Shown in pieces: positions 50,809 through 54,663 of a DNA stretch of 64,000 nucleotides (the stretch's first letter is position 1; every line of letters begins with the position of its first letter). The notes below the pieces were generated by a model that saw nothing but the letters and a program-made list of their open reading frames with translations, was not told where the DNA came from and did not search any database. This stretch comes from Escherichia phage vB_EcoM_R5505. A program made the translations under genes and the position numbers. Location of the stretch: the sequence record MK373786.1, one strand, 5' to 3'.

Positions 50809-53800
50809 ATGGCTACTTTAAAACAAATACAATTTAAAAGAAGCAAAACCGCAGGTGCACGTCCTGCTGCTTCAGTATTAGCCGAAGGTGAATTGGCTAT
50901 AAACTTAAAAGATAGAACAATTTTTACTAAAGATGATTCAGGAAATATCATTGACTTAAGCATTTCTGCTGGTGGTAATATCAGTGGAAATATCACTCAA
51001 ACTGGTGATTATACACAGACTGGAAAATTTAATTTAATTGGTCCGCAAATTGTAGCAAGCGGTGGATATATTGAGTTTAATTATCGTACTACTGGAAGTG
51101 GGGCTTGGTCCGGTCAACATACTGCGAAAGCTCCAATTTTTGTAGATTTAAGCTCAGCTACTTCCACATCTGAATATAATCCTATAATTAAACAGCGCTT
51201 TAAAGATGGAACTTTTTCATTAGGTACTTTAGTTTCTGAAGGTTCGTTGAAGATTCATTATATCAATGAATCTGGCGATTCGAAATATTGGACGTTTCGA
51301 CGTGACGGCGGATTTACTGTTGACGGTGGAGGTTTAGCAGTATCAGGAGGTAGTATAACTACATCTGGAAATATTGCAGCTATTGGAAATATTACTTCGC
51401 CTCAGATTAATACTAAAAATATTATTTTAGATACAAAAGCATTTGGACAATACGATTCGCAATCATTAGTTCAATATGTTTATCCTGGAACAGGTGAAGA
51501 AAATGGTATAAACTATCTTCGTAAAGTTCGAGCTAAATCAGGCGGAACCATTTACCATGAATTAGCTTCTGCGCAAACCGGAAAAAGTGATGAACTTTCT
51601 TGGTGGACTGGTAATACAGCCGTTAATAAACAAATGGGTCTTCGTAATGATGGGGCTTTAGTATTACGACGCTCACTCGCAATTGGTACAATTACAACAG
51701 ATGAAAACATTAATAACTACGGCTCCGCTGGAGCAATGGGCGAATGTTATATAGTTATCGGTGATGCATCAACAGGCTTATCATACAAAAAAACTGGAGT
51801 ATATGATTTAGTTGCTAGTGGTCTTTCTTTAGCATCTATTACTCCTGATAGTTTCCGTAGTACCCGTAAAGCGATTTTTGGTCGTTCCGAGGACCAAGGT
51901 ACAACATGGATTATGCCTGGAACCAACGCCGCGTTTTTATCGGTTCAAACACAAGCTGATGAAAACACTGCTGGAGACGGCCAGACGCATATTGGCTATA
52001 ACTCAGGCGGAAAAATGAACCACTATTTCCGTGGTAAAGGCAAAACTAATATTAATACTCAAGAAGGCATGGAAGTTAACCCGGGTATTTTGAAATTGGT
52101 AACTGGCTCTAATAATGTAATGTTTTATGCTGATGGCGGTATTACATCTGTTAAGCAGCTTTCAATATATAATGGCATATATTTAGCAGCTAATAATTCT
52201 ACTGCTGGGCTAACATTCGCTCCAACTACTACAATTGATGGTACTAAGCAAATTTTGTGGGAAGGCGGTACTCGTGCTGGGCAGAATAAAAGCTATGTAA
52301 CTGTTAAAGCATGGGGTAATTCATTTAACGCATCTGGCGATCGTAATCGTGAAACGGTTTTTGAAGTAGCTGATGGACAAGGATATTATTTTTATTCACA
52401 GCGTGTGGCTCCAAGTGGCTCTGAAACTACTGGGCCTGTTGTAACCCAGTTCAATGGACAAGTTAATGCTAGAGGAAGTATTATTACTGACGGAAGTTTT
52501 AAAGTTAATGGATTAAGCACTTTAGTCGGTAATGTTACCATGTCTAATGGTTTGTTTGTCCAAGGTGGTTCTTCTATTACTGGACAAGTAAAAATTGGTG
52601 GAACTGCTGATGCATTAAGAATTTGGAATGCCGAATACGGTGCTATTTTCCGTCGCTCAGAAACAGCATTACATATTATCCCGACTCCTAAAGATGCCGG
52701 TGAAAGTGGTGGAATAAGTAATCTCCGCCCACTTAGTATTAGTCTTAATAATGGTATGGTACAAATGCGCCATTCTGTTACGTTAGGCGATGATGGCGCT
52801 GGAGGTAATATGATTACTGTGGACAACGATACCAAACTTGTTGTTGTTACTAGTAATAGTCGCATTTCTCCTAATTACCGTATGCAGGTAGGACAAGCAG
52901 CTTATATTGATGCTGAATGTACTGACACAGTTCGCCCGGCTGGTGCAGGGTCTTTTGCTTCACAAAATAATGAAAACGTTCGTGCTCCATTCTATATGAA
53001 TATTAATCGTACAGATACAAGTACTTACGTTCCTATTTTGAAACAACGATATGTCCAAGGAAACAGTTGTTATTCTCTGGGAACTCTAATTAACGGCGGT
53101 AACTTCAGAGTTCATTATCATGAAGGCGGCGATGGCGGTTCGACTGGCGCTATTATAAAGGATTTAGGTTGGGAATTTAACAAAAATGGTGATTTTATAT
53201 CTCCTAAGCGTGTTTCTGCTGGTGGTTCAGTTTATTTAGGTACAGACGGCAATATTACAGGTGGTTCTGGCAATTTTGCTAATTTAAACAGTACAATTGA
53301 ATCACTTAAAACCGATATTGTATCGAGTTACCCAATCGGTGCTCCTATTCCATGGCCAACGGATACTCCTCCTGACGGTTACGCTATTATGGAAGGCCAG
53401 ACTTTTGATAAGTCTGCATACCCAAAATTGGCTATGGCTTACCCATCTGGCGTAATTCCAGATATGCGCGGGCAAACTATTAAAGGTAAACCAAGTGGTC
53501 GAGCTGTATTAAGCGCAGAAGCCGATGGTGTTAAGGCTCATAGCCATAGTGCATCGGCTTCAAGTACTGACTTGGGTACTAAAACTACGTCGAGTTTTGA
53601 TTATGGTACTAAGACGACAAGTAGCTTTGACTATGGCACTAAGACTAGCAATACCACAGGTAACCACTCTCATACTGTAAGCGGTACTACGAGTTCTGCT
53701 GGTGCACACCAACATGCGCGCTCAGGTCCTCAGATACAAGCCGGCATACCCAATAACATATTCTATGACGGATATAATAGTGTAGGTGCAAACGCCAACG

Positions 53801-54084
53801 CTAAATTCACTGGAACCGTGAACGGTGCTACTGCAGGGTCGAATATAGCCAAAACTTCTTCAGACGGTGCTCATACTCATACTTGGTCTGGTACTACAAG
53901 CACTACAGGTAACCATGCTCACACAGTAGGTATTGGTGCTCATACCCATACTGTAGGTATCGGTGCTCATACCCACACGGTAGCAATTGGCTCGCATGGT
54001 CATACTATCACTGTAAATAGTACAGGTAATACAGAAAACACGGTTAAAAACATTGCTTTTAACTATATCGTTCGTTTAGCATAA
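50809..54084 (+). CDS. 37: Long tail fibre distal subunit gp37, receptor-binding tip with His-box repeats
   Basis: 1091-aa ORF; C-terminus ...[11 protein letters not shown] as in T4 gp37; HxH repeats near the tip; longer than the 1026 aa I recall for T4. Confidence 0.95.
53575..53664 (+). repeat. Three 30-nt tandem coding repeats in gp37 ([10 protein letters not shown] x2, [10 protein letters not shown])
   Basis: Imperfect direct repeats visible at DNA and protein level. Confidence 0.7.
53908..54009 (+). repeat. Tandem 27-nt His-box repeats in gp37 tip (GIGAHTHTV units)
   Basis: ggtattggtgctcatacccatactgta / ggtatcggtgctcatacccacacggta plus flanking degenerate units. Confidence 0.75.
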
Positions 54085-54087
54085 GGA

Positions 54088-54105
54088 GAGGGGCTTCGGC
54101 CCCTT
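54088..54105 (+). terminator. Hairpin after gene 37
   Basis: gaggggc-ttcg-gcccctt. Confidence 0.7.
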
Positions 54106-54111
54106 CTAAAT

Positions 54112-54663
54112 ATGAAAATATATCATTATTATTTTGACACTAAAGAATTTTACAAAGAAGAAAATTACAAACCGGTTAAAGGCCTCGGTCTTCCTGCTCA
54201 TTCAACAATTAAAAAACCTTTAGAACCTAAAGAAGGATATGCAGTTGTATTTGATGAACGTACTCAGGATTGGATTTATGAAGAAGACCATCGCGGAAAA
54301 CGAGCATGGACTTTTAATAAAGAAGAAATTTTTATAAGTGAAATTGGAAGCCCGGTTGGTATAACTTTTGATGAGCCTGGCGAATTTGATATATGGACTG
54401 ATGACGGTTGGAAAGAAGACGAAACATATAAGCGAGTTTTAATTCGTAATAGAAAAATTGAAGAATTATATAAAGAGTTCCAAGTTTTAAATAATATGAT
54501 TGAAGCTTCTGTCGCCAATAAAAAGGAAAAATTTTATTATAAAAACCTTAAGCGGTTCTTTGCTCTTTTAGAAAAGCATGAGCATTTAGGTGGTGAATTC
54601 CCTTCATGGCCTGAAAAAGAACGGAAACCTTGGTATAAGCGTTTATTCAAGCATTACGTATAA
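54112..54663 (+). CDS. 38: gp38 tail fibre assembly chaperone (T4 type)
   Basis: 183-aa ORF directly after gene 37. Confidence 0.88.
   Translation: MKIYHYYFDTKEFYKEENYKPVKGLGLPAHSTIKKPLEPKEGYAVVFDERTQDWIYEEDHRGKRAWTFNKEEIFISEIGSPVGITFDEPGEFDIWTDDGWKEDETYKRVLIRNRKIEELYKEFQVLNNMIEASVANKKEKFYYKNLKRFFALLEKHEHLGGEFPSWPEKERKPWYKRLFKHYV

What the first reader, a model, noticed from the sequence alone, without database searches (positions are those of the whole stretch)
53575..54009. Expanded tandem repeats in the gp37 receptor-binding tip
gp37 here is 1091 aa versus about 1026 aa for T4. The extra length maps to the C-terminal tip, where 30-nt ([10 protein letters not shown]) and 27-nt (GIGAHTHTV) units are tandemly repeated. 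The HxH motifs are the metal-coordinating residues of the needle domain in T4, so extra units should lengthen or alter the needle and may change receptor specificity. Repeat-mediated slippage gives a simple mechanism for host-range variation.
Basis: partly seen in the sequence, partly recalled or inferred. Interest (0 to 1): 0.6.

Follow-up and report, generated by a model that had tools for sequence, protein, structure and literature searches.

The report
Known TuIb-type tail-fibre tip repeats
The two short tandem repeats are real, but they are the outgoing and returning halves of one extra structural layer in the metal-stapled shaft of a long-known tail-fibre tip (phage TuIb type, receptor OmpC), and nothing suggests they act as a host-range switch.

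Summary
Observation confirmed. gp37 (window 50809-54084, 1091 aa) carries [10 protein letters not shown] twice (53575-53634) and GIGAHTHTV twice (53929-53982). T4 gp37 (1026 aa) has one of each, so there are 8 HxH motifs here against 7 in T4.

- The repeats supply 19 of the 65 extra residues. The needle region as a whole supplies 37; the rest lie in the shaft.
- The window is phage AdolfPortmann/Bas44. Its tip differs at 3 residues from phage TuIb gp37, sequenced in 1990.
- Bas44 uses OmpC, like T4. TuIa has identical repeats but uses OmpF. A selected Bas44 host-range change (A978D) lies in the head domain, not in the repeats.
- The DNA copies are diverged at synonymous sites (22/30 and 24/27 nt identical). 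The copy number is the same in the sampled T-even tips of three genera.

In about 200 distinct homologous tips, the ascending 10-aa unit and the descending 9-aa HxH unit are gained or lost together, with one exception. I read them as the two halves of one rung of the antiparallel needle, lying well below the receptor-binding head. This is an ordinary, already described allele. The pairing rule is a modest structural point.

The parts
50809..54084 (+). gene 37: long tail fibre distal subunit with C-terminal adhesin, 1091 aa
   Evidence: ORF list. 100% identical to MZ501046.1 bas44_0084. 68% identical to T4 gp37 over the full length.
53338..53481 (+). Collar domain (aa 844-891)
   Evidence: Pfam PF07484, E=2.3e-11. 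Aligns to the 2XGF collar.
53539..53547 (+). HxH motif 1 (H911-S-H913), ascending strand, nearest the collar
   Evidence: Motif positions. Aligned to T4 H883/H885.
53575..53604 (+). 30-nt unit 1, [10 protein letters not shown] (aa 923-932), ascending strand
53605..53634 (+). 30-nt unit 2, [10 protein letters not shown] (aa 933-942). This is the copy with no counterpart in T4. It is 22/30 nt identical to unit 1 and all differences are synonymous.
53635..53664 (+). Degenerate third unit [10 protein letters not shown] (aa 943-952), leading into HxH motif 2
   Evidence: A weak PF03335 'phage tail fibre repeat' match at aa 948-961.
53665..53715 (+). HxH motifs 2 and 3 (H953/H955 and H967/H969), 14 residues apart, at the top of the ascending strand
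   Evidence: Gap pattern 42,14 | head | 14,9,9,9.
53716..53871 (+). Head (receptor-binding) domain, aa 970-1021. Single copy, 18 aa longer than in T4 and unalignable to it. It belongs to the same sequence cluster as lambda-Stf-like heads.
   Evidence: T4 head = residues 932-959 (PMC9603124). T4 receptor mutants map to 937-955 (PMC5221442).
53740..53742 (+). Codon A978, site of the A978D substitution selected when Bas44 adapted to OmpK36 porins
   Evidence: PMC12421954. Coordinate computed from the ORF start.
53872..53922 (+). HxH motifs 4 and 5 (H1022/H1024 and H1036/H1038), 14 residues apart, at the top of the descending strand
53929..53955 (+). 27-nt unit 1, GIGAHTHTV (aa 1041-1049; HxH motif 6), descending strand
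53956..53982 (+). 27-nt unit 2, GIGAHTHTV (aa 1050-1058; HxH motif 7). It is 24/27 nt identical to unit 1 and all differences are synonymous. T4 has one of these two units.
53983..54009 (+). 27-nt unit 3, degenerate AIGSHGHTI (aa 1059-1067; HxH motif 8)
   Evidence: 100% identical in protein to T4 from aa 1051 onward.
54010..54081 (+). C-terminal 24 aa returning into the collar ([24 protein letters not shown])
   Evidence: Identical to T4. In T4 the chain doubles back to the collar (PMC12609058, PMC9603124).
54112..54663 (+). gene 38, T4-type tail-fibre assembly chaperone, 183 aa
   Evidence: 181/183 identical to T4 gp38. Annotated as such in MZ501046.1.

Best explanation
The region is the C-terminal collar-needle-head adhesin of a TuIb-type gp37. 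In the T4 homologue (PDB 2XGF) each chain runs out from the collar to the head and doubles back. The trimer therefore forms a six-stranded antiparallel needle whose core is stapled by metal ions, each held by the HxH motifs of the three chains.

The two tandem repeats are not independent features. The 10-aa [10 protein letters not shown] unit is a His-free spacer on the outgoing strand. The 9-aa GIGAHTHTV unit is a metal-site unit on the returning strand. The two lie side by side at the same height in the collar-proximal half of the shaft. Relative to T4, this protein has one more such rung (+10 aa out, +9 aa back, 8 HxH sites instead of 7), so its shaft should be one layer longer.

Receptor choice (OmpC) is made by the single-copy head domain between HxH motifs 3 and 4, which here is a different and longer cassette than in T4.

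The extra rung is old and fixed. It is the usual architecture among the T-even gp37 adhesins sampled, and T4 is the shorter variant. Whether this lineage gained the rung or the T4 lineage lost it cannot be decided.

Shown: the repeats, the homology, the architecture classes and their pairing, the identity with TuIb and Bas44, and the receptor data from the literature. Inferred: metal occupancy of the eighth site, the side-by-side register, and the longer shaft.
For: Identity and family:
- 100% identical to Bas44 gp37.
- The C-terminal 267 aa differ from TuIb gp37 (X55191.1) at only F1000I, T1003S and N1005S, all in the head.
- Matches 2XGF at E=7.5e-96. Collar domain found by Pfam. gp38 is 99% identical to T4 gp38.

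Pairing of the two repeats, in 192 distinct tips:
- The His-free first ascending gap and the number of 9-residue descending gaps go together: 32 with two (94 tips), 42 with three (89), 52 with four (5). There is one exception.
- The 14-residue HxH units also pair between the strands: 0/0 (88), 1/1 (103), 2/2 (1).
- Fisher p=7e-53, not corrected for relatedness.
- The ascending span minus the descending span stays at 14-16 residues in every well-populated class.
- Eight further T-even tips obey the rule.
- Nine head-sequence clusters occur on more than one stem class, almost always with matched halves.

Register: with the T4 head at 932-959 (PMC9603124), a hairpin pairs residue i with about 1891-i. 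The T4 unit 899-908 then faces 983-992, which is the GIGAHTHTV unit at 985-993 (positions).

Specificity:
- Bas44 depends on OmpC, and A978D in the head adapts it to new porins (PMC12421954).
- Bas40, whose gp37 is 99.6% identical, uses OmpC (PMC8594841).
- TuIa has the same repeats but another head and uses OmpF (PMC9659904).
- T4 receptor mutants map to head residues 937-955 (PMC5221442).

Age:
- The copies differ only at synonymous sites, including a TCG/AGT serine switch.
- Within-genome paralogue identity (0.82 and 0.85) is about equal to orthologue identity (0.85 and 0.83).
- The same architecture is found in Tequatrovirus, Mosigvirus and Gaprivervirus.
- 105 phage records cover at least 80% of the 705-nt tip region.
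Against: - No trimer structure or coordinates were available. The side-by-side register is a geometric inference that assumes equal rise per residue on both strands.
- The monomer AlphaFold model was unusable (pLDDT 50.7).
- Metal binding at the eighth site is untested.
- The pairing statistic treats related sequences as independent. Head exchange by double crossover would keep both stem halves from one parent, so part of the pairing could be inheritance rather than selection.
- One natural sequence (L004) has two 10-aa units but only two 9-residue descending gaps, so a mismatch is either tolerated or an assembly error.
- An effect of shaft length on adsorption, for example reach through LPS or capsule, was not tested and cannot be excluded.
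Confidence: 0.8

Rival explanations
1. The repeats are slippage-prone, so unit number changes often. Each change lengthens or alters the needle and thereby changes receptor specificity, giving a simple host-range switch.
For: - Tandem in-frame units exist.
- The 27-nt copies share a 14-nt exact run.
- One metagenomic relative (L004) lacks exactly one 27-nt unit.
- From the title of Tetart et al. 1996 (cited in PMC3157838 and PMC5221442), duplications in the T4 gene 37 adhesin region can expand host range.
Against: - The 30-nt copies are only 22/30 identical, with a longest shared run of 8 nt. All differences in both repeats are synonymous, so the duplications are old and the peptides are under selection.
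- There is no sign of recent duplication or concerted evolution.
- Unit number does not vary in any sampled record that spans both repeats in one piece, down to about 78% nucleotide identity. It is the same in three genera.
- The one length variant among close relatives (teqdroes, -6 aa) maps to aa 559-564 in the shaft.
- T4 and Bas44/TuIb use the same receptor despite different unit numbers. TuIa and TuIb use different receptors despite identical units.
- The selected host-range change is in the head.
Confidence: 0.05
2. The two duplications are independent, neutral events with no structural link. They co-occur only because the whole stem is inherited or exchanged as a block.
For: - The sequences are related, and head cassettes are swapped by double crossover, which keeps both stem halves together. 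For example, the head DNA of L004 and TuIa is 100% identical while the flanks are about 85% identical.
- One mismatched sequence exists (L004).
Against: - Six different architecture classes all obey the pairing, for two different kinds of unit (10/9 and 14/14). This needs several concerted changes.
- The two stem halves have different histories in this very gene. The descending end is 100% identical to T4, whereas the ascending part is about 76-86% identical. They are still matched.
- The hairpin register places the two units opposite each other.
Confidence: 0.1
3. The polarity is reversed. The 8-site architecture is ancestral for T-even gp37, and T4 (with sutha) lost one rung, so nothing was 'expanded' here.
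For: - The 42,14|14,9,9,9 class is carried by five of the eight extra T-even tips fetched and by TuIa and TuIb. The T4 class was seen only in T4 and sutha.
- The single 27-nt unit of T4, sutha and L004 is identical. It equals the 5' end of copy 1 joined to the rest of copy 2 in the window, as a deletion between the copies would give.
Against: - Both classes are also common among lambda-like side tail fibres.
- The T4 unit differs from window copy 2 by a single base, so simple orthology explains it equally well.
- The units are too short to date.
Confidence: 0.4

Closest known systems
Phage TuIb protein 37 (GenBank X55191.1; Montag, Hashemolhosseini & Henning 1990)
   Same: 264 of 267 C-terminal residues are identical. 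It has the same two [10 protein letters not shown] and two GIGAHTHTV units, the same 8 HxH motifs and the same head, followed by gene 38 and t. The receptor OmpC is reported for TuIb (PMC9659904) and for Bas44 (PMC12421954).
   Different: Three head substitutions (F1000I, T1003S, N1005S). Only the 3' end of the TuIb gene is in the record.
Phage T4 gp37 receptor-binding tip (PDB 2XGF; Bartual et al. 2010)
   Same: Collar, six-stranded needle with HxH metal sites, head, and a gp38 chaperone that is 99% identical. Both use OmpC (PMC12609058).
   Different: T4 has one rung fewer (7 HxH; one unit of each kind). Its head is 18 aa shorter and unrelated in sequence. T4 can also use E. coli B LPS, whereas Bas44 is strictly porin-dependent (PMC12421954).
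Phage TuIa protein 37 (GenBank X55190.1)
   Same: Identical stem architecture and identical repeat peptides.
   Different: A different head sequence and receptor OmpF (PMC9659904). This shows that specificity does not reside in the repeats.
Lambda-type side tail fibre Stf and its prophage homologues
   Same: The same collar-needle-head module with the same modular rungs. The head of this window falls in the same sequence cluster as many Stf heads.
   Different: A different N-terminal shaft and virion context.
Laboratory host-range duplications in T4 gene 37 (Tetart et al. 1996, J Mol Biol 258:726)
   Same: Tandem duplications within the C-terminal adhesin region of gene 37. The title is cited in PMC3157838, PMC5221442 and PMC9603124.
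   Different: From my memory of that paper, which could not be read here, those duplications are bounded by His-containing motifs and include the receptor-recognising segment. Here the head is single-copy and the duplicated units lie in the shaft. A 75%-identical 36-nt direct repeat flanking the head (53644-53679 and 53893-53928) is the kind of substrate such a duplication would need.

Membership tests
T4-type gp37 C-terminal adhesin (collar-needle-head, PDB 2XGF) | Sequence homology to the solved tip over its whole length | tested here: met
   phmmer E=7.5e-96; query aa 814-1091 against chain residues 2-242.
T4-type gp37 C-terminal adhesin (collar-needle-head, PDB 2XGF) | Phage tail collar domain preceding the needle | tested here: met
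   PF07484, E=2.3e-11, aa 844-891.
T4-type gp37 C-terminal adhesin (collar-needle-head, PDB 2XGF) | HxH motifs on both sides of a variable head segment | tested here: met
   Three motifs before and five after the 52-aa head. T4 has three and four.
T4-type gp37 C-terminal adhesin (collar-needle-head, PDB 2XGF) | T4-type gp38 chaperone immediately downstream (not a T2/T6-type gp38 adhesin) | tested here: met
   181/183 identical to T4 gp38.
T4-type gp37 C-terminal adhesin (collar-needle-head, PDB 2XGF) | Intertwined trimer with metal ions coordinated by the HxH histidines | not testable with these tools
   Only monomer prediction is offered, and it gave pLDDT 50.7 and pTM 0.20. Metal content needs experiment.
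TuIb-type OmpC adhesin | Head sequence of TuIb | tested here: met
   Three substitutions in 267 aa.
TuIb-type OmpC adhesin | OmpC-dependent infection | not testable with these tools
   Reported for Bas44 in PMC12421954 and for the 99.6%-identical Bas40 in PMC8594841.
Slippage-driven contingency repeat (copy-number switch) | Near-identical DNA copies able to misalign | tested here: not met
   The copies are 22/30 and 24/27 identical. The longest exact shared runs are 8 nt and 14 nt.
Slippage-driven contingency repeat (copy-number switch) | Copy number varies among close relatives | tested here: not met
   No span difference in any sampled row of 96% identity or more in the 705-nt search. The teqdroes indel lies elsewhere. 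The only variant is L004, whose flanks are about 85% identical to TuIa.
Slippage-driven contingency repeat (copy-number switch) | Copy number correlates with phenotype (receptor) | tested here: not met
   T4 and TuIb/Bas44 use the same receptor with different numbers. TuIa and TuIb use different receptors with the same number.
Tetart-1996-type host-range duplication | The duplicated segment includes the receptor-recognising (head) sequence | tested here: not met
   The head at aa 970-1021 is single-copy. The direct-repeat search finds only His-box and shaft units. The definition of the feature rests on my memory of the paper.

The most novel reading that the evidence does not exclude
The needle of the T4/lambda-Stf adhesin family is a modular ladder. 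Its length changes only in matched rungs: 10 aa out with 9 aa back adds one metal site, and 14 aa out with 14 aa back adds two. Rung number (5 to 10 HxH sites seen here) would then be a selected length setting, for example to let the head reach a porin through LPS, O-antigen or capsule of a given thickness. It would be independent of which head cassette is carried. The pairing itself is well supported here. Its adaptive meaning is speculation.
Probability: 0.2. Interest if true: 0.4.

Novelty: already known. Interest (0 to 1): 0.15.

Why it matters
For this window, little. The gene is deposited and annotated (Bas44), its tip sequence was published in 1990 (TuIb), its receptor is known, and the homologous structure is solved.

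Two points are of practical use.
- People who engineer T4 or Stf-type fibres should keep the two stem halves matched when swapping heads. In about 200 natural tips, only one mismatched combination was found.
- HxH count, and so the predicted metal load and shaft length, varies in discrete steps that can be read directly from sequence.

Tried and rejected
- Monomer AlphaFold2 of aa 814-1091 with a 43-sequence alignment gave pLDDT 50.7 and pTM 0.20. It cannot be used for register or length. A trimer cannot be submitted with this tool.
- Bartual et al. 2010 (tried by DOI and by a PMC id recalled from memory) and the T4 genome review PMC150520 are not held. Tetart et al. 1996 turned up only as a citation. 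A search for 'His boxes' found nothing. Details of those papers are therefore taken from secondary sources or marked as memory.
- I tried to date the duplications by comparing orthologous and paralogous unit identity. The units are too short and saturated to give more than 'not recent'.
- I checked whether the 18-nt shorter gene of the 99.1%-identical phage teqdroes reflects repeat loss. It does not; the deletion is ITDGSF at aa 559-564.
- I considered that the extra 65 aa were all in the tip. This was rejected by the indel map.
- I considered polarity (gain here or loss in T4). It is not resolvable with the data in hand.
Full report
WHAT IS THERE

The finding lies in the 3' end of a 3276-nt ORF (window 50809-54084, + strand, 1091 aa). 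The gene order is gp35, gp36, gp37, gp38, holin t, asiA, as in T4. The gene is 100% identical to bas44_0084 of Escherichia phage AdolfPortmann (Bas44, MZ501046.1). About twenty other phage records are at least 99% identical.

Tandem Repeats Finder reports a 30-nt array (53568-53647, 2.7 copies) and a 27-nt array (53920-53983, 2.4 copies). In frame these are:
- [10 protein letters not shown] twice (aa 923-942), then a degenerate [10 protein letters not shown].
- GIGAHTHTV twice (aa 1041-1058), then a degenerate AIGSHGHTI.

T4 gp37 (1026 aa) has one of each. The needle has 8 HxH motifs here and 7 in T4.

WHERE THE EXTRA LENGTH IS

A full-length alignment with T4 (68% identity) gives the following account of the +65 aa:
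- Net +16 in an N-terminal segment that hardly aligns (aa ~51-200, 16-36% identity).
- Net +12 in the shaft, including an 11-aa insertion at aa 652.
- +37 in the needle region: +10 for the second [10 protein letters not shown], +18 inside the head domain, and +9 for the second GIGAHTHTV.

The repeats therefore explain 19 of 65 residues, not the whole difference.

WHAT THE REGION IS

- Residues 814-1091 match the solved T4 tip (PDB 2XGF) at E=7.5e-96.
- A collar domain (PF07484) lies at aa 844-891.
- The downstream gp38 is 181/183 identical to the T4 assembly chaperone.

In T4 the chain leaves the collar, runs to the head, doubles back and returns to the collar. The trimer thus forms a six-stranded needle whose HxH motifs coordinate seven Fe ions (PMC12609058; PMC11705849; PMC9603124). 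The T4 head is residues 932-959 (PMC9603124), and T4 receptor mutants map to 937-955 (PMC5221442).

In the window protein the head is aa 970-1021, between HxH motifs 3 and 4. The [10 protein letters not shown] units lie on the outgoing strand and the GIGAHTHTV units on the returning strand. Both sit in the collar-proximal half of the shaft, roughly 25-50 residues along the chain from the head.

THE TWO REPEATS ARE COUPLED

I collected homologous tips from three searches. I reduced them to 192 distinct C-terminal sequences and described each by the spacing of its HxH motifs. They fall into a few discrete classes, listed below with ascending gaps before the bar and descending gaps after it:
- 32,14 | 14,9,9 (T4 class): 63
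- 42 | 9,9,9: 52
- 42,14 | 14,9,9,9 (this window): 36
- 32 | 9,9: 30
- 52 | 9,9,9,9: 5
- 42,14,14 | 14,14,9,9,9: 1

The His-free first ascending gap grows in steps of 10 exactly when the number of 9-residue descending gaps grows by one: 32 with two (94), 42 with three (89), 52 with four (5). The 14-residue HxH units pair in the same way: 0/0, 1/1 and 2/2. Only one sequence breaks the first rule (L004).

The naive Fisher test gives p=7e-53. It ignores relatedness, so it should be read as description rather than proof.

Eight additional T-even tips from GenBank obey the rule. Five of them carry the window's architecture, on several different heads, in Tequatrovirus, Mosigvirus and Gaprivervirus. 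Nine head-sequence clusters occur on more than one stem class, almost always with matched halves.

A simple hairpin register agrees with this. If the T4 head is 932-959, residue i faces about 1891-i. The T4 unit 899-908 then faces 983-992, which is the GIGAHTHTV unit at 985-993.

My reading is that the two repeats are the two halves of one rung of the needle, and that this protein has one rung more than T4. The register, the eighth metal site and the longer shaft are inferences. The monomer AlphaFold model was too poor to help (pLDDT 50.7), and a trimer could not be run.

DOES IT CHANGE SPECIFICITY?

The evidence says no.
- The C-terminal 267 aa differ at only three head residues from protein 37 of phage TuIb (X55191.1), sequenced by Montag et al. 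in 1990.
- TuIb is reported to use OmpC and TuIa OmpF (PMC9659904). TuIa (X55190.1) has exactly the same stem and the same repeat peptides as TuIb, with a different head.
- Bas44 itself is strictly porin (OmpC)-dependent. When it was adapted to Klebsiella OmpK36 variants it acquired A978D in bas44_0084, which is in the head (PMC12421954).
- Bas40 (FelixPlatter), whose gp37 is 99.6% identical, uses OmpC (PMC8594841). T4 also uses OmpC.

So the same receptor is used with different rung numbers, and different receptors with the same rung number.

IS SLIPPAGE ACTIVE?

- The two 30-nt copies are 22/30 identical, and every difference is synonymous, including a TCG/AGT serine switch. The 27-nt copies are 24/27 identical, again all synonymous.
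- Across nine genomes, copies within a genome are no more alike (0.82 and 0.85) than orthologous copies between genomes (0.85 and 0.83). This rules out recent duplication or homogenisation.
- In the phage collection, 105 records cover at least 80% of the 705-nt tip region. The sampled rows that span both repeats in one piece have spans equal to the query. The one exception (+15 nt, phage F31) is not a multiple of either unit.
- The tblastn sample shows 834-nt matches from 100% down to 82% identity.
- The only length variant among close relatives (teqdroes) has its deletion at aa 559-564.
- The single natural exception, L004, lacks one 27-nt unit. Its head DNA is 100% identical to TuIa over about 240 nt while the flanks are about 85% identical. 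It is therefore a product of head-cassette exchange at the conserved His-containing motifs, a process already described for this locus (Tetart et al. 1998, cited in PMC3157838).

Rare unit loss or gain clearly happened in the past. There is no sign that it is frequent or tied to host range.

POLARITY

Whether this lineage gained a rung or T4 lost one cannot be decided. The 8-site class is the commonest among the T-even tips sampled. The single 27-nt unit of T4, sutha and L004 equals a copy1/copy2 chimera of the window, as a deletion would produce. Simple orthology with copy 2 (one base different) explains this equally well, and both classes are common in lambda-type Stf proteins.

VERDICT

The structural part of the interpretation (more HxH sites, longer needle) is reasonable. 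The functional part (altered specificity, slippage-driven host range) is not supported. The allele is a long-known one (TuIb type) in a characterised phage (Bas44). The only thing added here is the rung-pairing rule, which I did not find stated in the papers I could read. [quoted passage not shown]

Noticed in passing
window 54083-54114: Between the gp37 stop and the gene 38 start, the AAGGAG Shine-Dalgarno sequence (54083-54088) lies 23 nt from the ATG (54112). They are separated by a GGGGC-TTCG-GCCCC hairpin (54090-54103). The local fold is -15.6 kcal/mol, z=-2.6 against shuffles. From memory, T4 gene 38 is a textbook case where such a hairpin brings a distant SD close to the start codon. 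The element may also act as a terminator or stabiliser for the gene 37 transcript.
   Followed up: partly
window 50959-51408 (gp37 aa ~51-200): The N-terminal part of gp37 just after the conserved first 50 residues is only 16-36% identical to T4 and is a net 16 aa longer. The flanking segments are 78-96% identical. This looks like a swapped shaft module, probably the part that joins gp36. It was not traced to a donor.
   Followed up: no
window 52762-52794 (gp37 aa 652-662): An 11-aa insertion ([11 protein letters not shown]) relative to T4, within a locally divergent stretch of the shaft that is 40% identical over aa 651-700.
   Followed up: no
L004:1913-2151 versus L094 (TuIa) 727-965: The head cassette DNA is 100% identical over about 240 nt between a metagenomic T-even contig and phage TuIa, while the flanking stem DNA is about 85% identical. 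A second 100%-identical block lies in the 3' half of gene 38. This is a clean example of head-module exchange with crossovers in the conserved His-containing motifs.
   Followed up: partly
window 53644-53679 and 53893-53928: A 36-nt direct repeat, 75% identical and 249 nt apart, brackets the head domain together with one HxH motif on each side ([12 protein letters not shown] and [12 protein letters not shown]). Unequal exchange here would duplicate the whole head. That is the kind of event I recall from the 1996 T4 host-range duplications.
   Followed up: no
public records seen: Annotation slips in public records. PV204681.1 labels gp37 'tail fiber assembly protein' and gp38 'holin'. X55190.1 and X55191.1 (phages TuIa and TuIb) are filed under organism 'Tequatrovirus T4'.
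   Followed up: no
window 54112-54663: gp38 is 99% identical to T4 gp38, although the needle it helps fold has one more rung and an unrelated head. The chaperone therefore seems indifferent to rung number and head type. This fits the conserved chaperone families described in PMC9659904.
   Followed up: partly
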